DNA from: a virus
Lineage: Duplodnaviria; Heunggongvirae; Uroviricota; Caudoviricetes
DNA length: 64,000 nucleotides
IMG/VR virus record: IMGVR_UViG_2795385649_000011
Reading direction: 5' to 3' (one strand)
A program made the translations under genes and the position numbers. Shown one piece after another: positions 1 through 42,154 of this stretch. Under the pieces are notes generated by a model. The model was not told the origin of the DNA. It worked only from the letters and a program-made list of their open reading frames with translations, and searched no databases. Each line of letters starts with the position of its first letter. Within the stretch, counting starts at the first letter, position 1.

Positions 1-1044
1 CTAGCGCCAGGCGCGCGAGAACTTCAGGAACGCGTCGTTTTCCATCGGTGCTCCGATGGTCACCCGGACGCCATCGGTTCCAAAGGGGCGCACAATGATT
101 CGGGCCTCGGCGGAGGCTTGCGCGAATTCGGTGGAGCGCTCGCCCAGCGGCAACCACACGAAGTTCGCCTGCGACGGCGGCACCTGATAGCCGGCTTCCC
201 GCAGCGCACTGGTCACCCGGGCGCGTTCGGTGACAACGTCATTGGTGCGCGCGAGCAGCTCTTCGGCGGCGCCGAGGGAAGCCACCGCGGCAGCTTGCGC
301 CAGGCTCGACGCGCTGAACGGTACGTACACCTTGCCCAGTGTGGTGATCACATCGGGATCGCCGACCGCGTAGCCGACTCGCAGCCCCGCCAGGCCGTAT
401 GCCTTTGAGAAGGTGCGTAAGACAACGACATTGGGGTGCTCACGCACCAGTGCGAGGCTGTCGGTGAAGTCCTCGCGTACGTACTCGACGTAGGCCTCGT
501 CGATCGCGATCAGGATATGCGGCGGCACCGACTCGACGAACCGCCGCAGTTCGGCGGGCCGCACCACGGTGCCGGTCGGGTTGTTGGGGTTGCAGACGAA
601 GATCAGCCGGGTGACGTCGGTTACGGCGGCCGCCATGGCGGCGAGGTCATAGGTGTGGTCGACCAGCGGTACCTGCACCGGAGTCGCCCCCGCGACCCGC
701 ACCACCAACGGATAGGTCTCAAAGGACCGCCAGCCGAACAGCACCTCGTCGCCCACCGTTGCGGTGATCTGGACCAGCTGCTGGCATAGGCTCACCGACC
801 CGCACCCCACCGCGATGTGCTCGGGCGGCATGTCGACGTGCTTGGCCAGGTGCGAGCGCAGCTCGGCGTAGCCATTATCGGGGTACCGATTGATCAGCGA
901 CCCCGCCTCGGCGAGGGCGGCCCGCACGCTCGGCAGCGGCTCCTGCACGGTCTCATTACTGGCGAGCTTGATGGCGCCGGGGACGTTTCGGCCCGGTGTG
1001 TAGGCCGGTAGTTCGGTCAGTTCGGGGCGAAGTCGTGCGGGCAC
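1..1044 (-). CDS. Class I/II pyridoxal-phosphate aminotransferase (histidinol-phosphate / aromatic aminotransferase family), host gene
   Basis: 347 aa ORF with an aminotransferase fold signature (LASNE, NPNNPTG, SKAYGLAGLRVGY, the lysine is the PLP site). Full length from M at 1044 to the stop at 1-3. Confidence 0.8.
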   Translation of the reverse strand: MPARLRPELTELPAYTPGRNVPGAIKLASNETVQEPLPSVRAALAEAGSLINRYPDNGYAELRSHLAKHVDMPPEHIAVGCGSVSLCQQLVQITATVGDEVLFGWRSFETYPLVVRVAGATPVQVPLVDHTYDLAAMAAAVTDVTRLIFVCNPNNPTGTVVRPAELRRFVESVPPHILIAIDEAYVEYVREDFTDSLALVREHPNVVVLRTFSKAYGLAGLRVGYAVGDPDVITTLGKVYVPFSASSLAQAAAVASLGAAEELLARTNDVVTERARVTSALREAGYQVPPSQANFVWLPLGERSTEFAQASAEARIIVRPFGTDGVRVTIGAPMENDAFLKFSRAWR

Positions 1045-1180: not shown

Positions 1181-1269
1181 GGAGGCGTGCCAGAGCGGCC
1201 GAATGGGACTCACTGCTAATGAGTTGTCCCCTTTACGGGGGACCGGAGGTTCAAATCCTCTCGCCTCCG
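1181..1269 (+). tRNA. tRNA-Ser (anticodon GCT), type II with long variable arm
   Basis: Acceptor GGAGGCG/CGCCTCC, D-arm AGCGGCCGAA, anticodon stem ACTCA/TGAGT with loop CTGCTAA, long variable arm, T-arm GGAGGTTCAAATCCTCT. Folded by hand. Confidence 0.85.
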
Positions 1270-1317
1270 CGTCGGTCTGCAGGCCAAACCTGTTGACCTG
1301 CAACAATTGAATAGTAA

Positions 1318-25646: not shown

Positions 25647-26392
25647 CCGTAGAATTCGATGCTGTGAACGGGCCAACCAACGCGTCTCCCGTCTGGGCGA
25701 GAGAGTCGTTCGTGAACGCGTTCTGGGTCGCGACCGGCGAATCACCCGAATGGATCGCGGCGCGCACCGATGCGCTGCTGACGCAGCTAGGAACGGATCT
25801 GGGAATCGCGCAGTGGGACATCCCGAAGGGGCACCACTGGGAGACTTGGGCTGGGCCCAGCGAGGCATTGGCCGACATCGTTCGGAGCTGCCCGGTGCGC
25901 GAAGCACTCCCTGACGGCGCCAGCGGCGATGCTCTCCCCAGGGAGGGGTACTCGATCGTCCTGAAGGGCGTCGGTCCTGCCATCACTGCCAAGGTCTTCA
26001 TCGGTGCGGGGTCTATCGGTCTCGGCGGGAGACTGCCGGCGCACAACCTCCACATCGACCTGACCGAGACCGCGCCGGGCGGCGTCTCTAGCGAGGTTGG
26101 CGACAAGGTGTGCGCCGCTGTGGCTTCAACCTGGCAGCCCGCCACTTTCACCCTCACTGATCTTGCGGCAATGCGCCTTGCTCGGCGCAACAATTGGAAG
26201 ATCGGTGCCGGATACCGCACCTGGATCAGCAAGGAAGTCGGCGAGATTGACCATCTCGTTGACCTTCTCACAAAGACCGAGCTGGCCGGGGGCACCCTGA
26301 TCTCCGCGCCCGACGACTGGCCCGCTACGCGCGTCGTGGAGGCGGTCACCGCGACCCTCCGCGAGAACGGCCTAGACGAAGTACCTCACTGA
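25643..26392 (+). CDS. Hypothetical protein, candidate immunity protein to the upstream toxin-like gene
   Basis: 249 aa ORF, ATGA-coupled to the toxin-like gene and last gene before the non-coding RNA block. The immunity role is inferred from position only. Confidence 0.45.
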   Translation: MTVEFDAVNGPTNASPVWARESFVNAFWVATGESPEWIAARTDALLTQLGTDLGIAQWDIPKGHHWETWAGPSEALADIVRSCPVREALPDGASGDALPREGYSIVLKGVGPAITAKVFIGAGSIGLGGRLPAHNLHIDLTETAPGGVSSEVGDKVCAAVASTWQPATFTLTDLAAMRLARRNNWKIGAGYRTWISKEVGEIDHLVDLLTKTELAGGTLISAPDDWPATRVVEAVTATLRENGLDEVPH

Positions 26393-26550
26393 GCTGGCAC
26401 CGATATTCGGTAGCCAGGTCGAGGGCCTCGACGGCATACTTTCCCCGGTACGGGAGTCACCTTCCAGCGAATCAACATTTCCTCAAAAAATATGCCCTGA
26501 ACAGGCATTACTGAGGTATAGTTCTTGGCGTAGTCAACAAAAACATGGAT

Positions 26551-26722
26551 GGCGTGAGCAGGACGCGAGTCGGTTATCTGAAAATCATCAGATCGCGGGT
26601 TCGAATCCCGCCGGGCTGCTTGAAAGAGCTTCGGGCTTTCATCGGGCGGAACGTGGCAGAGCGGCCGAATGCATTGATCCAAGATCAACGCCGGTAAGCA
26701 CCTCACACGCCCACGCCATCCC
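26551..26722 (+). ncRNA. YrlA-like Y RNA copy 1 (Ro60-binding stem plus an enlarged tRNA-like module containing a type-II tRNA-like D-arm)
   Basis: 5' GGCGTGAGCAGGACGCGAGTCGGTTATC pairs with 3' CCGGTAAGCACCTCACACGCCCACGCC. Internal T-arm GCGGGTTCGAATCCCGC and D-arm-like GTGGCAGAGCGGCCGAATGC, which matches tRNA-Ser at 1181. Confidence 0.5.
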
Positions 26723-26739
26723 GGATACAACTTCACATT

Positions 26740-26878
26740 GATGATGCGAGCAGGACGCAGGTCGGTTACCACTTCTAATGGAGAGGTCGCGGGTTCGAGT
26801 CCCGTCAGCCGCGAAAGTGGTTGTAGCTCAGTCGGTAGAGCGCTTACCCCCGGTCAGCACACACACGCCCGCATCATC
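26740..26878 (+). ncRNA. YrlA-like Y RNA copy 2 (best-formed copy)
   Basis: Terminal stem GATGATGCG/CGCATCATC plus GAGCAGGACGCAGGTCGGTTACC vs CCGGTCAGCACACACACGCCCG; T-arm GCGGGTTCGAGTCCCGT; 7-bp acceptor-like stem CAGCCGC/GTGGTTG closed by GAAA; D-arm TAGCTCAGTCGGTAGAGCG. Confidence 0.6.
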
Positions 26879-26896: not shown

Positions 26897-27044
26897 ATGG
26901 TGTGAGCAGGACGCAGGATCGGTTATCGCATCTGGAGCGGGTGGTCGCTGGTTCAAATCCAGCTGCGGGCGCGTAGTGCGTCCGTATAGCTCAGCTTGGT
27001 AGAGCACCTAAAACACCGGTCAGCAATCACACGCCCGCACCACC
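26897..27044 (+). ncRNA. YrlA-like Y RNA copy 3
   Basis: GATGGTGTGAGCAGGACGCAGGATCGGTTATC vs CCGGTCAGCAATCACACGCCCGCACCACC; T-arm GCTGGTTCAAATCCAGC; acceptor-like stem CGGGCGC/GCGTCCG closed by GTAGT; D-arm TAGCTCAGCTTGGTAGAGCA. Confidence 0.55.
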
Positions 27045-27076: not shown

Positions 27077-27202
27077 GATGTGAGCAGGACGCTCGGTCGG
27101 TTATCACTCAATTGGTAATGCAGGTTCGACCCCTGTCGCTCGCGCCTCGGTGCGGGTGTAAAAGCGAAATCCCGGTCAGCACATACACGCCCACATCACC
27201 CC
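27077..27202 (+). ncRNA. YrlA-like Y RNA copy 4 (degenerate tRNA-like module)
   Basis: GATGTGAGCAGGACGCTCGGTCGGTTATC vs CCGGTCAGCACATACACGCCCACATCACC; T-arm GCAGGTTCGACCCCTGT; GC-rich stem CGCTCGCGC/GTGCGGGTG closed by CTCG; no clear D-arm. Confidence 0.45.
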
Positions 27203-27216
27203 GAACCCCCTTTTGG

Positions 27217-27294
27217 CGCGAGCAGGACGACGGTCGGTTACCCCAACCTCGAAACTGGATGAACCCCGGCGGTCACTCACACGCCCGCGCCACC
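27217..27294 (+). ncRNA. Minimal Y RNA-like hairpin copy 5 (Ro-binding stem only, no tRNA-like module)
   Basis: GGCGCGAGCAGGACGACGGTCGGTTACC pairs with CCGGCGGTCACTCACACGCCCGCGCC across a 23-nt loop; it ends 22 nt before the rsr start. Confidence 0.45.
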
Positions 27295-27315: not shown

Positions 27316-29016
27316 GTGGACGTTCTATCCTCGATCAGCACGCGGCGCACCCCTCAGGCCCAGAAGGCGGACCCGCGCCAGGTCAAGAACGCCGCCGGGG
27401 GCTACACCTTCCAGGCCGACGACTGGACCCGGCTCCACCGATTCCTGACCCTCGGCACGACCGGCGGCACCTACTACACCTCCGCCGAGGACCTCACCCG
27501 CGACGCCGCCGATGTCGTGATCCGGCTCGCCGCAACCGATCCCGTCACCCTCGTGCAGAAGATCGTTGAGGTCTCCGAGGCCGGACGCGCCCCCAAGCAG
27601 AACCCGGCCCTGTTCGCGCTCGCTATCGCTTCGGCCTCCGAGAACGTGGAAGGCCGCCGTGCCGCCGCCGCCGCACTGCCCCGAGTCGCGCGCACCGCCA
27701 CCCACCTGTACCTGTTCACCAAGTACATGGAGCAGTTCCGGGGCTGGGGACCGGCGATGAAGCGCGCCGTCTCCAGCTGGTACCTGGACAAGCCCGTGGA
27801 CCGGCTCGCCTACCAGCTGGTCAAGTACCGGCAGCGTGACGGCTGGACCCACCGCGACATGCTCCGGCTCAGCGGCCCCGCCACCAGCGACCCCGCACGC
27901 CGCATGGCGTTCAACTGGGCTGTCGGCAAGGGGCTCAACGACTACAACTGGAAGCAGCCGCTCCTCACTCCGGAGCAGCTCAAGGCCGGAGAGCGCAACC
28001 CCGCTCTACCGAAGCTGCCCAATGTGGAACTGGCTGACGGGCACCCGCTTGCCATCATCGCGGACTACGAAGCCGCGCAGCGTGCCACCACCGTCAACGA
28101 GTGGCTGGCGATCATCCGCCGGGGCAACGGCCTACCGTGGGAGGCGTTCCCCGACAAGGCCCTCACCGAGCCTGCGATCTGGGAGGCGCTGATCGAGCAC
28201 GGCCTCCCGCAGACCGCCCTCATGCGGCAGCTGCCCCGCCTAACCCGCCTCGGCGTGCTGAACGGTCAGCTCGGCAGCCGGGTCTCCGCGCAGCTCCAGG
28301 ACACAGACCGGCTACGAAAGGGCCGCGTCCACCCGATCAATGTCCTTGTCGCACAGCGCACCTATGCCTCTGGGCGTTCTGCGCGCGGTGAGTCCACCTG
28401 GACTCCGAACCGCCGCATCGTTGACGCGCTCGACGCCGCGTTCTACAACGCCTACGGCGCCGTCGAGCCCTCGGGTAAGCGGACCCTGCTGGCACTGGAC
28501 ATCTCCGGCTCCATGAGCGCCGCGATCTCCGGTATGCCGCTGACGTGCCGCGAGGCCGCCGCCGCGCTCGCACTGGTGACCGCCAACGTGGAGCCCAACC
28601 ACGACATCATCGGGTTCACCGCCGGGGCCGGTGGGAGCTTCCGCTCATCAGGGATCACGGAGTTGGACATCACGCCGCGCCGCCGCCTCGATGACGTGTG
28701 CCGATACACCGCAGGCCTCCCTATGGGCGCTACCGACTGCGCGCTCCCCATGATCTGGGCGAAGGCGCAGCTTCGCCCCTACGACGCCATCGTGATCCTC
28801 ACCGACAACGAGACCTGGTACGGGGGTATCCACCCGCACCAGGCTCTCACCGAGTACCGGAACAAGCTCAGCCTGGACACCAGCCTGATGGTGGTCGCGA
28901 TGACCGGCGGTCGGCAGACCATCGCAGATCCTTCGGACCCGCGCCAGCTCGACGTGTCCGGGTTCGATAGCGCTGTACCGCAGCTCATCTCGGACTTCGC
29001 CCGAGGTGACCTGTAA
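27316..29016 (+). CDS. rsr: Ro60 ortholog Rsr: TROVE-domain RNA-binding protein with C-terminal vWA (MIDAS) domain
   Basis: 566 aa; N-terminal TROVE-like region; C-terminal vWA with MIDAS motif LLALDISGSMS...T...TD; AAGGAG RBS before the GTG start. Directly downstream of the five Y RNA-like genes. Confidence 0.7.
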   Translation: MDVLSSISTRRTPQAQKADPRQVKNAAGGYTFQADDWTRLHRFLTLGTTGGTYYTSAEDLTRDAADVVIRLAATDPVTLVQKIVEVSEAGRAPKQNPALFALAIASASENVEGRRAAAAALPRVARTATHLYLFTKYMEQFRGWGPAMKRAVSSWYLDKPVDRLAYQLVKYRQRDGWTHRDMLRLSGPATSDPARRMAFNWAVGKGLNDYNWKQPLLTPEQLKAGERNPALPKLPNVELADGHPLAIIADYEAAQRATTVNEWLAIIRRGNGLPWEAFPDKALTEPAIWEALIEHGLPQTALMRQLPRLTRLGVLNGQLGSRVSAQLQDTDRLRKGRVHPINVLVAQRTYASGRSARGESTWTPNRRIVDALDAAFYNAYGAVEPSGKRTLLALDISGSMSAAISGMPLTCREAAAALALVTANVEPNHDIIGFTAGAGGSFRSSGITELDITPRRRLDDVCRYTAGLPMGATDCALPMIWAKAQLRPYDAIVILTDNETWYGGIHPHQALTEYRNKLSLDTSLMVVAMTGGRQTIADPSDPRQLDVSGFDSAVPQLISDFARGDL

Positions 29017-29018
29017 CG

Positions 29019-29453
29019 ATGGGCAGGGTCGGCGGCCCCGCGCCGCGCCCCTGCGCGTCGTGCCCCTACCGGGAGGACGTACCCAGCGGCGTGTGGCATG
29101 CCACCGAGTATCAGAAACTCATCGCCTACGACGGCCCCACCTCGGAGCAGCCGCCCGGCCTGTTCCTGTGCCACCAGACGGACGCCGCCGACGCAGCGGC
29201 CCGGCTTTGTGCGGGCTGGGTCGGCTGCCACGGCGGCGAGGAACTACTTGCGATACGCATCGGCGCGGCCACGGGCGCGCTGTCTCCCGAAGACGTACAG
29301 GCCGCATTCGAATATGTGAGCCCTGTCCCGCTGTTCGAGTCAGGCCGTGACGCAGCAGAGCACGGCATCTTCGAGATCGAAGACCCCGGAGAGGAAGCCA
29401 TCACCGCGATCGAGAAGATATCCCGCCGCCGCGTGGACATCAGGGGACGTTGA
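29019..29453 (+). CDS. Hypothetical Cys-rich protein downstream of rsr
   Basis: 144 aa; CASCPYREDVPSG...CHQTDAADAAARLCAGWVGCHGG. Confidence 0.4.
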   Translation: MGRVGGPAPRPCASCPYREDVPSGVWHATEYQKLIAYDGPTSEQPPGLFLCHQTDAADAAARLCAGWVGCHGGEELLAIRIGAATGALSPEDVQAAFEYVSPVPLFESGRDAAEHGIFEIEDPGEEAITAIEKISRRRVDIRGR

Positions 29454-29671: not shown

Positions 29672-29838
29672 GTAGCGGCCCTTTCCATATCGTGAACCGG
29701 CTCAACGGGAAGCACGTTGGCCCGTTCACGACTGAAACGGACTGCGCGCTAGCGAAAACCATTGCTACACCGGACTGGACAACGGGAATTGTCATGGACA
29801 AGAAGCAATTCAAGAAGCACTTGGAGCGTGGACTGTGA
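29668..29838 (+). CDS. Hypothetical small protein (56 aa)
   Basis: ATG 29668, stop 29836-38 overlapping the next GTG start. Confidence 0.3.
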   Translation: MSSGPFHIVNRLNGKHVGPFTTETDCALAKTIATPDWTTGIVMDKKQFKKHLERGL

Positions 29839-30692
29839 GTACAGAAGCACGCCACGGCACGGAGCGGCACCGCGCTATCGCGGACGAGAACACGATTCTT
29901 CGTGGGCAGGTCGGCTCCGGCCTGCATGGTGTCACGACCGGCGCCGACGACCGCGACGAAATGGGCATCTGCATCGAACCTCCCGAGGCCGTAATCGGTT
30001 TGGAGAAGTTCGAGCAGTACATGTACCGCACCCAACCGGACGGCGCCCGCTCCGGCCCCGGCGACCTCGATCTGTGTGTCTACAGCCTGCGGAAGTGGAC
30101 ACGGCTGGCCGCCAATGGCAATCCCTCAGTGCTGCTGATGCTTTGGATACCCGACAATGAGCTGACGGTGAAAAGCCAACTCGGCGCCGAACTTCAGGCA
30201 GCCTCGGAGATGTTCGTCACCACGCAGGCTGGACAGAAGTTCTTGAGCTACTTGAACTCTCAGCGTGAAGGACTCGAAGGTACCCATCACCGGCACACCA
30301 ACCGGCCCGAACTCATCGAACAGTACGGTTTCGACACCAAGTACGCGTATCACGCCCTGCGCCTCGGCATGCAGGGTATCCAGCTCGTCACGGAGAGGAA
30401 GCTGCACCTGCCGATGGTCAAGGCCCATCGTGATGCGCTGCTCCGCGTTCGGCGCGGCGAGACCTCGCTCCCCGAGGTGAAGAGCTGGCTCGCGGATCTG
30501 ACCTGGAGTCTGGAGCACTTCATCTCGACCGAGCCTCTGCCGGATACCCCGGACTGGGTTCGGATCAACACGTGGTTGGTTGATATGTACCAGCGGCACT
30601 GGCGTACTCGCGGTACCAGGTCCGAAGCCCGACTCTCCGGCGCGATCCGAAACGCACACAACATCGCCGTCAGTCGAAGTAGATGGCGATGA
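29835..30692 (+). CDS. Pol-beta-superfamily nucleotidyltransferase with helical C-terminal domain
   Basis: N-terminal NTase motif GQVGSGLHGVTTGADDRDEMGI (GS...[DE]x[DE]); 285 aa. Confidence 0.55.
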   Translation: MSTEARHGTERHRAIADENTILRGQVGSGLHGVTTGADDRDEMGICIEPPEAVIGLEKFEQYMYRTQPDGARSGPGDLDLCVYSLRKWTRLAANGNPSVLLMLWIPDNELTVKSQLGAELQAASEMFVTTQAGQKFLSYLNSQREGLEGTHHRHTNRPELIEQYGFDTKYAYHALRLGMQGIQLVTERKLHLPMVKAHRDALLRVRRGETSLPEVKSWLADLTWSLEHFISTEPLPDTPDWVRINTWLVDMYQRHWRTRGTRSEARLSGAIRNAHNIAVSRSRWR

Positions 30693-39828: not shown

Positions 39829-40464
39829 GTGTCCCAGCTAAAAACCTTCAAGGGCAACCCGCGTAGAGGTTCGGTCCCGGATATCGCGGCCTCGCTTACC
39901 GCCAATGGCCAGTACCGGCCCATCGTGGTGAACCGTGGGACGCACACCGGGCGCCCCAACGAGGTGTTGGCCGGTAACCACACCTTGCTCGCGGCGCGGG
40001 AACTCGGCTGGGCAGATATCGACTGCTGGCTGGTGGACGTGGATGAGCAGCAGGCCAAGGCGATTGTCGTTGCTGACAACAAGATCCCAGCCTTGGGTGG
40101 GTACGACAACGAGGCGTTGCTGGAAATCCTGGAGTCCCTGGACACCCTGGATGGCACCGGTTACGTGCAAGACGATCTCGATGACCTGGCGGCGGCCCTG
40201 GAGGAGCTGGAACCGGTGCCGGAGGACGAGTTGGCCGGAAACCAGGGCACCGCAACGTCCCTGGAGGACTTGAAGACCAACTATGACCAGTCCGACCAGC
40301 GGATGGTCGTGATGACGTTCGTCGGCGACGAGTACCTGTGGGTGGTCGAGACGTTGCAGCGGGTGGCGGACGCTCACGCACTGGAGAGCAACGCATCCGT
40401 GTTGGTGCACCTGCTCAAGCAGGAAGAGACCGCGCTGGACGCAGCGCCAGCGGTCGCGGAGTGA
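39829..40464 (+). CDS. ParB-like N-terminal domain protein
   Basis: GQYRPIVVNRGT...VLAGNHTLLAARELG ParB/Srx motif; acidic C-terminus. Confidence 0.6.
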   Translation: MSQLKTFKGNPRRGSVPDIAASLTANGQYRPIVVNRGTHTGRPNEVLAGNHTLLAARELGWADIDCWLVDVDEQQAKAIVVADNKIPALGGYDNEALLEILESLDTLDGTGYVQDDLDDLAAALEELEPVPEDELAGNQGTATSLEDLKTNYDQSDQRMVVMTFVGDEYLWVVETLQRVADAHALESNASVLVHLLKQEETALDAAPAVAE

Positions 40465-41297
40465 CACCGGTGGAGCGGCTGAGTTTACGGCGGGTGGTGA
40501 GCCCGGAGGAGGCGACAACCCTCGTCGGTACGCGGGTCGGGGAGCACGAGCCGACCCACAGCGAGCCATTCATCGCTACAGACGCCGATACCGGTGAGAC
40601 CGTGATGGCGGTGCTGCCGGTGGAGGCGCCGGATCTGCGGCGGGCCTGCCTGTCATTGAAGTACACGGATCTGCGGCGTGCGTCGGGCGCGAAGAACCTG
40701 TCGGCCAACTTCGGGTACCAGCCCCGGCGGCCAAGCTACAGCCGCGACGCGTGCCGGGCGTCCGGTGTCGCCAAGGAGTTCCCGGCAGCCGAGGCAGCGC
40801 TGGATGCGTGGGCCGGGGCGCTGGCGAGGATGCTCCGCCAAATTGACGCGAAAATCGAGGCCCGCGACCGGGAAACCATGCTCCAGGTCGGATCTACCTG
40901 GAAGCTGGGCGATTCCGAGCTCTGGACTTCGGGTGTCATCAACCGGAGCTCGACGCTGCCCTACCACCGCGACGGGTTCAACTTCCCAACCTGGAGCGCG
41001 ATGCCAGTGTTCCGGCGCGGCATGAACGGTGGGCACCTGCACATCCCCGAGTACGGGGTGGTGCTGCCGTGCCGAGACAGCACCGCGGTCTTCTTCCCGG
41101 GTCATCAGCTGGTGCATGGGGTCACCCCGATGCAGCTCCGTAAGCCGGACGGATACCGGCTGAGCGTCGTCTATTACGCCCTCAAGGGCATGAAATCGTG
41201 CTTGGAGGGTGCATTGGAGACTGAATACGCCCAAAAGGCGCGCACCGCTCGGGAGCAGAATCAGGCGCGGCTCATCGCTGAGCGGAGGCAGCCCTAG
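40461..41297 (+). CDS. 2OG-Fe(II) dioxygenase, candidate TET/JBP-family nucleic-acid base hydroxylase
   Basis: GTG overlapping the upstream TGA; HxD (LPYHRDGF), distal His (LVHGVTP) about 55 aa later, then Arg (LRKPDGYR), which is the DSBH 2OG-oxygenase spacing. Confidence 0.45.
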   Translation: MTPVERLSLRRVVSPEEATTLVGTRVGEHEPTHSEPFIATDADTGETVMAVLPVEAPDLRRACLSLKYTDLRRASGAKNLSANFGYQPRRPSYSRDACRASGVAKEFPAAEAALDAWAGALARMLRQIDAKIEARDRETMLQVGSTWKLGDSELWTSGVINRSSTLPYHRDGFNFPTWSAMPVFRRGMNGGHLHIPEYGVVLPCRDSTAVFFPGHQLVHGVTPMQLRKPDGYRLSVVYYALKGMKSCLEGALETEYAQKARTAREQNQARLIAERRQP

Positions 41298-42154
41298 TGA
41301 GGCGCGCCCCGGCCCGCGAGTACCAGATCGTGATCCCCTCCTACCAGCGCGCCGAAGGGCTGGAGCGGAAGACGCTCGCCTGGCTGAACGCGACCGGAGT
41401 GGACCCGGCCCGGATCACGGTGTTCCTCCACGACAACGATCCGCAGCTGGAGGCCTACCAGGAGGTGGCCGGCAGGACGGGTGTCCGCCTCAACGCCACC
41501 CCGATGCGCGGTATCACGGCACAGCGGACCTACATACCCACCCAGTTCGCGCCTGGTACCCCGATTGTGTGCCTGGACGACGACGTGACGGGCCTGGTGG
41601 AGGCAGTGGACTCGAAAACCCTTCGCCCCGTGGCTGATGTGGATTCACTGTTCCGGCGGATGTTCACCGAGACCGCTGGGCGGGACCTGTACGTGTGGGG
41701 TCTGTCGCCGGTCGTCAATGCCTTCTACATGTCGCCGGGCCGCGTCAGCGAAGGCCTCCGATTTCTGATCTTCACCGTGATCGGGTTCTTCAACCGGCCC
41801 GGCCATCCCGTCCACGAGTTCACCGTCCCGTACAAGGACGAGCACGAAACGAGCCTGCGCGCATGGTGGTACGACGGTGGCACAGTCCGGCACGACGGAA
41901 TTGCCGCCCAAGCGAACTACTACACGGACCCTGGCGGCTGCCAGGCGCCCGGTGAGTTCCAAAGAACCCCCGCCAAGGTCGCTTTCAGCGTCGAGGAGCT
42001 GGAGAAGCAGTGGCCGGGCCTGGTGCGCAGGAACACCCGCAAGAAGGACACCGGCTACATCGAGATCACCCTCGCCCCGAAGAAGCGGCACGCCGGGCAC
42101 CCCCCGACCACGCCGCCACCCGGCGTCCGCTCCGCGAAGGCCGGGGGCCGGTGA
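41297..42154 (+). CDS. GT-A-fold glycosyltransferase-like protein (candidate TET/JBP-associated base glycosyltransferase)
   Basis: N-terminal YQIVIPSYQRAEGL Rossmann-like start and DxD-like CLDDDV; translationally coupled to the dioxygenase. Confidence 0.4.
   Translation: MRRAPAREYQIVIPSYQRAEGLERKTLAWLNATGVDPARITVFLHDNDPQLEAYQEVAGRTGVRLNATPMRGITAQRTYIPTQFAPGTPIVCLDDDVTGLVEAVDSKTLRPVADVDSLFRRMFTETAGRDLYVWGLSPVVNAFYMSPGRVSEGLRFLIFTVIGFFNRPGHPVHEFTVPYKDEHETSLRAWWYDGGTVRHDGIAAQANYYTDPGGCQAPGEFQRTPAKVAFSVEELEKQWPGLVRRNTRKKDTGYIEITLAPKKRHAGHPPTTPPPGVRSAKAGGR

What the first reader, a model, noticed from the sequence alone, without database searches (positions are those of the whole stretch)
26551..26722. 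Y RNA copy 1 carries a D-arm closely matching the tRNA-Ser D-arm at 1181
GGGCGGAACGTGGCAGAGCGGCCGAATGC in copy 1 matches GGAGGCGTGCCAGAGCGGCCGAATGGG of the chromosomal tRNA-Ser (AGAGCGGCCGAATG identical). The other copies carry type-I D-arms (TAGCTCAGTCGGTAGAGCG). This suggests the tRNA-like modules derive from, or mimic, different host tRNAs.
Basis: seen in the sequence. Interest (0 to 1): 0.55.

Follow-up and report, generated by a model that had tools for sequence, protein, structure and literature searches.

The report
Prophage Y RNA with serine-tRNA-type D-arm
The first of five small Y RNA genes in front of a prophage Ro60 gene in Mycobacteroides abscessus has a tRNA-like domain whose D-arm matches serine tRNAs, a previously undescribed flavour of a known RNA family whose function is untested.

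Summary
Copy 1 (26550-26718) and the chromosomal tRNA-Ser(GCU) share an exact 15-mer. They match at 17 of 19 bases over tRNA positions 8-25, and the two differences are a compensatory swap of pair 10-25.

The neighbouring tRNA is not the best model. The copy-1 18-mer GGCAGAGCGGCCGAATGC is exactly the D-arm of tRNA-Ser(UGA) in many Actinomycetota: 73 of the 80 genome hits examined.

tRNA-Leu D-arms are far from it (at most 12 of 19). So this is a serine-type D-arm, not a generic class II one. The likeness stops at the D-arm. Similarity in the acceptor stem is no better than in other Y RNA modules.

Copy 1 is a YrlA-like Y RNA. It has a conserved Ro-binding stem, then a T-arm, a closed acceptor-like hairpin and a D-arm, 598 nt upstream of a TROVE/Ro60 gene in a prophage.

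Serine-type D-arms recur in Y RNA arrays whose Ro proteins are only 51-63% identical to this one. Their T, acceptor and D stems covary. Glu-like and Leu-like D-arms also occur in other arrays.

Only copies 2 and 3 carry the canonical D-arm. Copy 4 has a T-arm only, and copy 5 has neither arm.

Verdict: a new variant of a known kind, of moderate interest. Its function is inferred, not shown.

The parts
26550..26718 (+). Y RNA copy 1, whole unit. Terminal stem is 26550-26556 paired with 26712-26718.
   Evidence: The 5' motif GAGCAGGACG..GUCGGUUA and the 3' motif CCGGU..CACACGCCC are shared by all five units. The terminal 6-7 bp differ between units in a complementary way.
26556..26576 (+). Conserved 5' strand of the presumed Ro60-binding module (GAGCAGGACGCGAGUCGGUUA)
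   Evidence: Repeated at 26748, 26904, 27082 and 27220. Invariant in six homologous prophages.
26577..26592 (+). Hairpin at the variable-arm position (UCUGA-AAAUCA-UCAGA), followed by U and C48
   Evidence: Invariant in homologues. Published YrlA RNAs also have V stem-loops (PMC4201824; bioRxiv 10.1101/312249).
26595..26611 (+). T-arm, GCGGG-UUCGAAU-CCCGC
   Evidence: The stem covaries across serine-type modules.
26612..26653 (+). Closed acceptor-like stem. It is unusually long: about 12 bp with two A.G mismatches, plus a distal hairpin capped by cUUCGg.
   Evidence: All variation among close homologues lies here, including compensatory changes and frame-breaking indels. All 7 pairs tested covary.
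26654..26673 (+). U8 G9, the serine-type D-arm (GCA-GAGCGGCCGAA-UGC, 26656-26672) and A26
26674..26688 (+). Extra hairpin directly after position 26 (UUGAUC-CAA-GAUCAA). Its role is unresolved.
   Evidence: In L010 the loop changes and one pair changes U-A to U.G, which keeps the stem.
26691..26711 (+). Conserved 3' strand of the Y stem (CCGGUAAGCACCUCACACGCC)
26743..26875 (+). Y RNA copy 2, canonical YrlA-type module (T-arm 26789-26805, D-arm 26826-26841)
   Evidence: Rfam YrlA partial match, 34.2 bits, below the gathering score
26899..27041 (+). Y RNA copy 3, canonical YrlA-type module (T-arm 26947-26963, D-arm 26989-27005)
   Evidence: Rfam YrlA full-length match, 37.9 bits, E=1.7e-6, below the gathering score of 69
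27077..27197 (+). Y RNA copy 4: T-arm (27120-27136) and acceptor-like hairpin, no D-arm
27215..27291 (+). Y RNA copy 5: Ro-binding stem only, no tRNA-like module
27316..29016 (+). Ro60 orthologue (TROVE plus vWA_Ro60 domains), 566 aa
   Evidence: Precomputed Pfam PF05731 and PF25045. Named TROVE domain-containing protein [Mycobacteroides].
1181..1270 (+). Chromosomal tRNA-Ser(GCU), the comparison partner named in the finding
   Evidence: ARAGORN; Rfam tRNA 51.6 bits

Best explanation
Copy 1 is one of five tandem, prophage-encoded Y RNAs of the YrlA kind, lying just upstream of a Ro60 (TROVE) gene.

Its two ends pair into the conserved stem that Ro60 is expected to bind. Its middle folds into a circularly permuted tRNA-like domain: a variable-position hairpin, a T-arm, a closed acceptor-like hairpin and a D-arm.

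The difference from described YrlA RNAs is the D-arm. It is the serine-tRNA type: a 3-bp stem with C11-G24, a G13.A22 mismatch and an 11-nt loop GAGCGGCCGAA. It is base-for-base identical to actinobacterial tRNA-Ser(UGA) over positions 6-26.

The bases needed for the tRNA elbow and core are all present: U8-A14, G15-C48, and G18/G19 with the T-loop. So the domain should adopt the L-shape.

Inferred mechanism: Ro60 holds the stem, and the tRNA-like end is presented to tRNA-binding proteins. Candidates are modification enzymes, RNase P, or a still unknown effector. Changing the D-arm flavour changes which face of the elbow and core is offered, so one Ro60 can use an array of differently flavoured adaptors.

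Shown here: sequence identity, covarying helices, genomic context, and recurrence in distant Ro loci. Inferred: Ro binding, the L-shape fold, and any serine-specific partner.
For: Context:
- The TROVE/vWA_Ro60 gene starts 598 nt downstream of copy 1, on the same strand, in a Mycobacteroides prophage.
- An RlaP RNA-repair nucleotidyltransferase lies 0.8 kb further downstream.

Family:
- Copies 2 and 3 match Rfam YrlA at E=2e-5 and 1.7e-6.
- All five units share the same end motifs.

D-arm:
- Exact 15-mer shared with the neighbouring tRNA-Ser(GCU).
- The exact 18-mer occurs in tRNA-Ser in 77 of 80 genome loci, 73 of them with the UGA anticodon.
- Leu D-arms reach at most 12 of 19.
- C11-G24 is a bacterial tRNA-Ser identity element (PMC9976931).

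Structure:
- In 11 class-II-type modules, 95% of cells are paired and 11 of 15 pairs have compensatory changes. None of 500 shuffles reaches this, and slid controls give 31-49% paired.
- In close homologues, all variation and the frame-breaking indels lie in the acceptor-like stem.

Recurrence:
- The same D-arm, with one base different, sits in Y units of arrays whose Ro proteins are 51-63% identical (L234, L239, L240, L252). Their T and acceptor stems are different.
- These arrays pair it with canonical modules.

Against: - There are no expression, Ro-binding or structure-probing data for this RNA.
- The minimum-free-energy fold does not form the T-arm. The tRNA-like fold is 5.8 kcal/mol worse.
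- The Rfam YrlA model gives no match to copy 1 even at E<=10.
- Other serine-type units (L239, L252) have no hairpin at the variable position, so the D-arm is not part of a complete class II mimic.
- The acceptor-like stem lacks the serine determinants G73 and C72, and it is closed.
- Its similarity to tRNA-Ser acceptors is unexceptional: combined edit distance 4 for the window copy, a value that 51 of 159 control modules equal or beat.
- The extra hairpin after position 26 has no counterpart in the solved YrlA structure.
- The published motif GNCGAA is not present as such; here it reads GCAGGA.
Confidence: 0.72

Rival explanations
1. Historical by-product. The module was built from, or later recombined with, a tRNA-Ser gene. 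One route is the dimeric-tRNA origin proposed for YrlA. The serine-type D-arm is then kept only because any sound D-arm supports the fold. It has no serine-specific partner.
For: - Identity to tRNA-Ser(UGA) runs 22 nt without a mismatch.
- The dimeric-tRNA origin model is quoted in bioRxiv 10.1101/312249.
- Other arrays carry Glu-like and Leu-like D-arms, as repeated capture would give.
- Serine-type units in other lineages lack a hairpin at the variable position.
Against: - The D-arm is nearly invariant (16-17 of 17) across arrays whose Ro proteins are only 51-63% identical, while the adjacent stems have diverged and covaried. That points to selection on the sequence, not only the fold.
- Acceptor-stem similarity to tRNA-Ser is not above background, so there is no trace of a whole captured tRNA.
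Confidence: 0.3
2. Generic consensus or chance. The match only reflects the D-loop consensus shared by class II tRNAs.
For: - The core GAG.GGCC.AA also occurs in some tRNA-Tyr. The best Tyr match is 17 of 19.
- The same 15-mer is found in several tRNA-Ser isoacceptors (GCU, UGA, ACU, GGA), so it is not specific to one.
Against: - tRNA-Leu, the largest class II group, reaches only 12 of 19.
- In a reference set not fetched through the serine pattern, tRNA-Ser is still the nearest type, at 3 edits against 5 or more for all other types.
- Pairs 11-24 and 12-23, G9 and G20b are not consensus positions, yet they match.
- Two exact copies in the window against 0.31 expected, even with 2 mismatches allowed.
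Confidence: 0.06
3. Copied specifically from the adjacent chromosomal tRNA-Ser(GCU) at 1181, for example during integration or excision next to the tRNA cluster.
For: - The two lie in the same window, and the prophage abuts the tRNA-Ser/tRNA-Arg pair.
- They share the exact 15-mer.
Against: - The match is 17 of 19, against 19 of 19 for tRNA-Ser(UGA) of other Actinomycetota.
- There is no similarity in the T-arm, variable arm or acceptor.
- Related serine-type modules occur in unrelated phage contigs.
- The unit lies 25 kb inside the prophage.
Confidence: 0.03
4. Not an RNA gene. The region is part of the minus-strand ORF 26386-26772 (128 aa), or is a decayed tRNA gene fragment.
For: An ORF of 128 aa is listed on the minus strand.
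Against: - Homologues differ by 7-nt, 2-nt and 1-nt indels inside the region, which would break any reading frame.
- Base-pair covariation is strong.
- The Ro-stem motifs flank it, as in the four other units.
- ARAGORN and Rfam find no tRNA gene here.
Confidence: 0.02

Closest known systems
YrlA, the bacterial Y RNA with a tRNA-like domain (Rfam RF02553; Chen et al. 2014, PMC4201824; Wang et al. 2018, bioRxiv 10.1101/312249)
   Same: - It is encoded next to and upstream of an Ro60/Rsr gene.
- Its ends form the Ro-binding stem.
- Its internal domain runs in the order V region, T-arm, closed acceptor-like hairpin, D-arm.
- The tertiary-contact bases U8, A14, G15/C48 and G18 G19 are conserved.
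- Such RNAs also occur in mycobacteriophages, and several Y RNAs per locus are known.
   Different: - The D-arm is the serine type, not the 'nearly invariant' UAGCUCA..GGUAGAGC.
- It has G9 instead of A9.
- The acceptor-like stem is about 12 bp plus a distal hairpin, where M. smegmatis YrlA has 7 bp.
- There is an extra hairpin after position 26.
- The Rfam model does not detect it, even at E<=10.
Bacterial tRNA-Ser, especially actinobacterial tRNA-Ser(UGA)
   Same: - Positions 6-26 are identical: CGUGGCAGAGCGGCCGAAUGCA.
- It has the C11-G24 identity pair.
- It has a hairpin where the long variable arm sits.
- It has a standard T-arm.
   Different: - The order is circularly permuted.
- The acceptor end is closed, with no CCA.
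- There is no anticodon loop.
- G73 and C72 are absent.
- tRNA finders do not detect it.
- The similarity does not extend beyond the D-arm.
M. smegmatis YrlB / S. Typhimurium YrlB (Y RNAs with a T-arm only)
   Same: Copy 4 of this array has a T-arm and hairpin but no D-arm, like the published YrlB of M. smegmatis (PMC4201824).
   Different: This applies to copy 4, not to copy 1.
Other tRNA mimics: tmRNA and the tRNA-like 3' ends of plant viruses
   Same: They use T-arm and D-loop contacts to imitate the tRNA elbow. Some imitate one particular amino acid identity.
   Different: Those mimics have an open, aminoacylatable acceptor end. This one is closed and is attached to a Ro-binding stem.

Membership tests
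Bacterial Y RNA / YrlA | Encoded close to an Ro60 (TROVE) gene, usually upstream on the same strand | tested here: met
   Copy 1 ends 598 nt before the TROVE/vWA_Ro60 gene at 27316-29016, on the same strand.
Bacterial Y RNA / YrlA | The 5' and 3' ends pair into a stem that carries the conserved Ro-binding motif (published as GNCGAAN0-1G) | tested here: inconclusive
   The terminal stem is present and complementary in all five units, with different sequences. A motif is strongly conserved, but it reads GAGCAGGACG here and GAGCCGGA in other actinobacterial loci, not GNCGAA.
Bacterial Y RNA / YrlA | Internal tRNA-like domain: T-arm, then a closed acceptor-like hairpin, then a D-arm, supported by pairing | tested here: met
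   95% of cells paired, 11 of 15 pairs compensatory, 0 of 500 shuffles reach this. Variation in close homologues is confined to the acceptor-like stem.
Bacterial Y RNA / YrlA | Nearly invariant D stem-loop UAGCUCA..GGUAGAGC, and a match to the Rfam RF02553 model | tested here: not met
   The copy 1 D-arm is UGGCAGAGCGGCCGAAUGC. There is no YrlA match at E<=10, while copies 2 and 3 match at 34-38 bits, themselves below the gathering score of 69.
Bacterial Y RNA / YrlA | Bound by Ro60/Rsr in cells; modified by TruB and DusA or cleaved by RNase P | not testable with these tools
   This needs immunoprecipitation and biochemistry.
tRNA-Ser (bacterial) | Serine-type D-arm, including C11-G24 | tested here: met
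   19 of 19 identity with tRNA-Ser(UGA) over positions 8-26. C11-G24 is listed as an identity element (PMC9976931).
tRNA-Ser (bacterial) | Long variable arm | tested here: inconclusive
   A 5-bp hairpin lies directly before the T-arm (26577-26592). But canonical YrlA units also have such hairpins, and other serine-type units lack one.
tRNA-Ser (bacterial) | Open acceptor stem with G73, C72, G2-C71 and a CCA end; an anticodon arm with a 7-nt loop | tested here: not met
   The acceptor-like stem is closed by a hairpin. Position 73 is C and position 72 is G. The hairpin after position 26 has a 3-nt loop. ARAGORN and the Rfam tRNA model find nothing here.

The most novel reading that the evidence does not exclude
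The Y RNA arrays of actinobacterial phages and prophages may be panels of tRNA mimics with different isoacceptor flavours: Ser, Ser/Tyr-like, Glu-like, Leu-like and a generic class I type. Each flavour would direct Ro60 to, or act as a decoy for, a different tRNA-recognising host factor. Candidates are a synthetase, a modification enzyme or a tRNA-targeting toxin. Copy 1 would be the serine member of the panel. On this reading the D-arm flavour is functional, not historical.
Probability: 0.25. Interest if true: 0.72.

Novelty: new variant of a known kind. Interest (0 to 1): 0.5.

Why it matters
The published picture of YrlA RNAs stresses that the D and T stems are almost invariant. From that it predicts a single effector that reads the tRNA elbow with some sequence specificity (PMC4201824; bioRxiv 10.1101/312249).

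This array places a serine-type module next to two canonical ones. Serine-, Glu- and Leu-like D-arms recur in distant Ro loci. Either the elbow reader tolerates very different D-arms, or there are several readers.

That gives a direct experimental handle on the unknown partner of bacterial and phage Y RNAs: swap D-arm flavours and see which proteins follow.

There is also a practical point. Current models (Rfam YrlA) miss these units. Genome annotators call pieces of Y RNA arrays as tRNA genes.

Tried and rejected
1. A whole permuted tRNA-Ser. Local alignments made copy 1 look like tRNA-Ser(UGA) in the acceptor strands too: GGAACG against GGAAGCG, and in L223 CGGTCCGCC against CGCTTCCGCC. A control with 159 other Y modules showed that 14 do as well as the best copy-1 variants and 51 do as well as the window copy. 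I dropped the claim.

2. The host's own tRNA-Ser(UGA).
- An anticodon-arm pattern scan of viral contigs returned only unrelated phage tRNAs.
- A conserved neighbour gene, a quinone oxidoreductase, was found next to tRNA-Ser(UGA) in other Mycobacteriales. Its homologue list held no Mycobacteroides entry among the 120 shown.
- The comparison with the full host tRNA set therefore remains undone.

3. Deposited phage genomes. No record among 50,697 holds a copy-1-like unit. Only the shared 5' stem and T-arm of prophiT37-1 matched weakly. Relatives of L239 gave no match, and relatives of L234 matched only canonical units.

4. Thermodynamic folding alone. The minimum-free-energy structure breaks the T-arm. 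Only a constrained fold gives the tRNA-like layout. The structure therefore rests on covariation, not on energy.

5. Promoter scan. It found no sigma-70-type promoter upstream of the array. This is not informative for mycobacterial promoters.

6. Literature. Two reviews on bacterial Y RNAs (PMC10870794, PMC6047535) and the supplements of Chen et al. 2014 are not held. I cannot exclude that D-arm variants are mentioned there.

Full report
**What the window is**

The left end holds a Mycobacteroides abscessus aminotransferase gene (1-1044, minus strand; the exact protein is found on more than 1000 M. abscessus contigs). It is followed by tRNA-Ser(GCU) at 1181-1270 and tRNA-Arg(ACG) at 1318-1391.

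A prophage starts directly after the tRNA-Arg. Its nearest deposited relatives are the M. abscessus prophages prophiT37-1 and prophiGD43A-5, at only 75-82% identity over parts of the sequence.

At 27316-29016 the prophage encodes a 566-aa Ro60 orthologue with TROVE and vWA_Ro60 domains. The identical protein is annotated in Mycobacteroides abscessus, M. chelonae and M. salmoniphilum genomes.

Downstream lie a DUF6283 gene and an RlaP nucleotidyltransferase of the 'RNA repair pathway' family. Comparative work describes TROVE proteins with a tRNA-like RNA partner as RNA-repair platforms in phages, and RlaP as a companion of RNA ligases (PMC7824862).

**The array**

Between 26550 and 27291 there are five tandem units on the plus strand. 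Each begins with a 6-7 nt segment followed by GAGCAGGACG...GUCGGUUA. Each ends with CCGGU...CACACGCCC followed by the complement of the first segment.

The terminal segments differ between units but stay complementary:

| Unit | 5' segment | 3' segment |
|---|---|---|
| 1 | GGCGUG | CACGCC |
| 2 | GAUGCG | CGCAUC |
| 3 | GGUGUG | CGCACC |
| 4 | GAUGUG | CACAUC |
| 5 | GGCGCG | CGCGCC |

Units 2 and 3 match the Rfam YrlA model at 34.2 and 37.9 bits (E=2e-5 and 1.7e-6). Both are below the family's gathering score of 69. Both carry the canonical D-arm.

Unit 4 has a T-arm and a hairpin but no D-arm. Unit 5 is a bare stem.

This is the arrangement published for Ro60 loci. YrlA RNAs have a Ro-binding stem and a permuted tRNA-like domain, and they also occur in mycobacteriophages. 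M. smegmatis has a YrlA and a T-arm-only YrlB (PMC4201824).

**Checking the observation**

The longest exact string shared by copy 1 and the tRNA-Ser(GCU) is 15 nt, CAGAGCGGCCGAATG (26657-26671 and 1191-1205). With up to two mismatches these are still the only two sites in the window. Shuffles give 0.31 on average.

In tRNA numbering the two agree at 17 of 19 positions from U8 to C25. The two differences are G10-C25 in the Y RNA against C10-G25 in the tRNA, a compensatory swap.

**Is it only a class II consensus?**

- I scanned IMG/VR for the 15-mer and ran ARAGORN on the hits. It lies in tRNA-Ser with anticodons GCU (21), UGA (16), ACU (9) and GGA (1), and once in a tRNA called Cys.
- It also occurs by chance in coding DNA, and in the copy-1 homologues of five related prophage contigs.
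- Across 176 distinct tRNAs in those loci, the best ungapped match to the 19-mer of copy 1 was 19 of 19 for tRNA-Ser, 17 of 19 for tRNA-Tyr and 12 of 19 for tRNA-Leu.
- That sample was fetched through the pattern, so it is biased.
- In a second set of 176 tRNAs fetched for other reasons, tRNA-Ser is still the nearest type, at 3 edits. All other types need at least 5.

So the arm is serine-type, with tRNA-Tyr a more distant relative. It is clearly not the leucine type. It includes C11-G24, which a recent compilation lists, together with a large variable region, as core identity elements of bacterial tRNA-Ser (PMC9976931).

**Is the neighbouring tRNA the model?**

No. The 18-mer of copy 1, which includes its own G10-C25 pair, was scanned against one genome per species.

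Of the 80 loci I examined, 73 hold the 18-mer in tRNA-Ser(UGA), 3 in tRNA-Ser(GCU) and 1 in tRNA-Ser(CGA). Of the other three, one is a class II tRNA that ARAGORN called tRNA-Phe, and ARAGORN called no tRNA in the last two.

The organisms are mostly Actinomycetota: Nocardia, Gordonia, Rhodococcus, Corynebacterium, Dietzia, Williamsia and many Pseudonocardiales. The identity with these tRNAs runs for 22 nt, CGUGGCAGAGCGGCCGAAUGCA (positions 6-26).

None of the 120 records is a named Mycobacterium, Mycolicibacterium or Mycobacteroides. The one 'uncultured Mycobacteriaceae' record has a neighbouring protein closest to that of Tomitella.

So I cannot say that the host has a tRNA with this exact arm. 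The truncated list hints that it may not. Attempts to fetch the host tRNA-Ser(UGA) failed.

**Does the likeness go beyond the D-arm?**

Local alignments suggested it does. I therefore compared the acceptor strands of 159 distinct Y modules with the acceptor stems of the tRNA-Ser(UGA) set.

The copy-1 lineage scores a combined edit distance of 3-4. Fourteen modules score 3 or better, and 51 score 4 or better. The acceptor similarity is not significant.

The T-arm GCGGGUUCGAAUCCCGC is a common one. The serine likeness is therefore confined to the D-arm and its immediate flanks.

**Structure**

Six close homologues (93-98% Ro identity) are invariant in the Ro motifs, the variable-position hairpin, the T-arm and the D-arm. 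They differ almost only in the acceptor-like stem.

There the changes keep pairing: G-U to G-C, and A.G to A-U. The indels are 7, 2 and 1 nt long, which rules out a conserved reading frame on either strand.

For a wider test I cut eleven class-II-type modules from different loci to the same register. Each construct held 5 nt, the T-arm, 7 nt on each side of the acceptor-like stem, U8 N9, the D-arm and N26. I then counted pairs. The results:

- 95.2% of cells were paired.
- 11 of 15 pairs had changes on both sides.
- 0 of 500 shuffles reached any of the observed values.
- Controls with slid partners gave 31-49% paired.

The caveat is that I made the constructs with the structure in mind.

Energy alone does not give the fold. 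The unconstrained minimum is -68.4 kcal/mol and breaks the T-arm. The fold with the T- and D-arms enforced is -62.6 kcal/mol.

In that fold the acceptor-like stem is about 12 bp, with two A.G mismatches and a distal hairpin capped by cUUCGg. Two further hairpins flank the module, at 26577-26592 and 26674-26688.

The first hairpin sits where a class II variable arm would. The second sits where the anticodon stem would start, but its loop is only 3 nt. How these two and the Ro stem are arranged around the junction is unresolved.

**Recurrence elsewhere**

An alignment of 20 mycobacterial Ro proteins retrieved 80 loci from IMG/VR and 80 from JGI metagenomes. Some are duplicates. Looking for a T-arm followed within 110 nt by a D-arm-like hairpin gave the following.

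| D-arm type | Sequence | Where |
|---|---|---|
| Canonical | GCUCA..GG.AGAGC | The majority of modules |
| Serine, as in the window | GCAGAGCGGCCGAAUGC | The window's lineage |
| Serine, one or two bases different | GCAGAGCGGCCUAAUGC; L239 reads ..CCUAUUGC | L234, L239, L240, L252=L366 (Ro 51-63% identical); different T and acceptor stems; no variable-position hairpin |
| Ser/Tyr-like | GACGAGUGGCCUAAGUC and variants | 13 loci |
| Like bacterial tRNA-Glu | UC-GUCUAGCGGCCUAGGAC | L241, L237, L261, L359 |
| Like tRNA-Leu | UG-GCGGAAUUGGUAGACGC | L291/L292 |
| Hybrid | GCUCAG(U/C)GGCCUAGAGC | 15 loci; also unit 3 of prophiT37-1 and prophiGD43A-5 |

The Glu-like call is soft. It is 1 edit from a tRNA-Glu in the full reference, but in the less biased reference tRNA-Val (2 edits) is closer than tRNA-Glu (3 edits).

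All these modules sit inside units with the Y end motifs. The spacing between T-arm and D-arm (14-27 nt) is too short for two separate tRNA genes. Arrays usually combine one such module with canonical ones.

**What is known and what is new**

Already published:

- Y RNAs with a tRNA-like domain.
- Their presence in mycobacteriophages.
- Several Y RNAs per locus.
- Long variable regions 'characteristic of class II tRNAs'.
- The idea that YrlA arose from dimeric tRNA transcripts.

The same papers stress that the D and T stems are 'nearly invariant', and they predict an elbow-reading effector. I found no description of serine-, Glu- or Leu-type D-arms in Y RNAs. However, two reviews and the supplements of the 2014 paper were not available.

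The Rfam model does not find copy 1 at all. No deposited phage genome holds a close copy. I therefore rate it a new variant of a known kind.

**How it most likely works**

- Shown: it is a conserved, structured, non-coding unit of a Y RNA array next to Ro60, and its D-arm is identical to serine tRNAs.
- Inferred from the family: Ro60 binds the terminal stem; the module folds into a tRNA-like L through U8-A14, G15-C48 and the D-loop/T-loop contacts; and it is presented to tRNA-binding proteins.
- The neighbourhood (RlaP) and the literature point to RNA repair or RNA quality control during phage infection.
- Open: whether the serine flavour selects a particular partner or is a relic of how the module was assembled. 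The near invariance of the D-arm across arrays with 51-63% Ro identity, against freely covarying neighbouring stems, leans towards selection on the sequence.

The module cannot be a substrate for seryl-tRNA synthetase as it stands. Its acceptor end is closed and lacks G73 and C72.

Noticed in passing
L241:953, L237:1269, L261:1031, L359:1288, L291:1051, L244:1040, L246:992, L249:920 (T-arm start coordinates): Y RNA units in other Ro loci carry D-arms that look like tRNA-Glu (UC-GUCUAGCGGCCUAGGAC), tRNA-Leu (UG-GCGGAAUUGGUAGACGC) or a Ser/Tyr-like class II arm (GACGAGUGGCCUAAGUC). They are usually in the same array as canonical YrlA-type units.
   Followed up: partly
L006:1498-1576 (prophiGD43A-5, MW584167.1 26001-26079): The deposited annotation 'tRNA-Thr (tgt)' covers the 5' stem, V hairpin, T-arm and acceptor 3' strand of a Y RNA unit. 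It is very probably a mis-call of a Y RNA, not a tRNA gene. The V hairpin there, and in window copy 2 (CCACUUCUAAUGG), has an anticodon-loop-like 7-nt loop.
   Followed up: partly
window 27077-27197 and 27215-27291: Copies 4 and 5 of the array are reduced forms. Copy 4 keeps a T-arm and hairpin without a D-arm, like YrlB. Copy 5 is only the Ro-binding stem with a short internal loop.
   Followed up: partly
window 40338-41297 and 41297-42154: Two adjacent prophage genes resemble a TET/JBP-type 2OG-Fe dioxygenase (weak, below the Pfam cut-off) and a TET-associated glycosyltransferase (above the cut-off). This suggests DNA base hypermodification by the phage.
   Followed up: no
window 29019-29453 and 29835-30692: Directly after Ro60 come a DUF6283 gene and, 0.4 kb further on, an RlaP nucleotidyltransferase (RNA repair pathway family). 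No RNA ligase was found among the ten proteins scanned.
   Followed up: partly
window 26492-26508: A perfect 6-bp palindromic hairpin (AUGCCC-UGAAC-AGGCAU) with an A/T run lies about 40 nt upstream of copy 1. It scores as a terminator on the minus strand. It could end leftward transcription or act as an operator for the array.
   Followed up: no
L001:6093-8331 compared with window about 25640: Contigs that carry the identical Ro protein have two extra genes just upstream of the 249-aa gene that precedes the array. One encodes 627-634 aa with a faint Tox-REase-5 hit. The window appears to lack them.
   Followed up: no
L001:19442-19780 (about 9.4 kb downstream of the Ro gene start): A 112-aa gene with an Acb2/Tad1 hairpin domain, a family of phage sponges for cyclic-nucleotide defence signals, lies in the same accessory region as the Ro/Y RNA cassette.
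   Followed up: no
L046 and L084 (viral contigs, around the 15-mer hit): The same serine-type D-arm occurs in an unusual tRNA-like sequence that ARAGORN did not call: GGGCGGGCUGCCAGAGCGGCCGAAUGGGGUCCUAGCUACUACGCC... It may be a suppressor or a non-standard class II tRNA.
   Followed up: no
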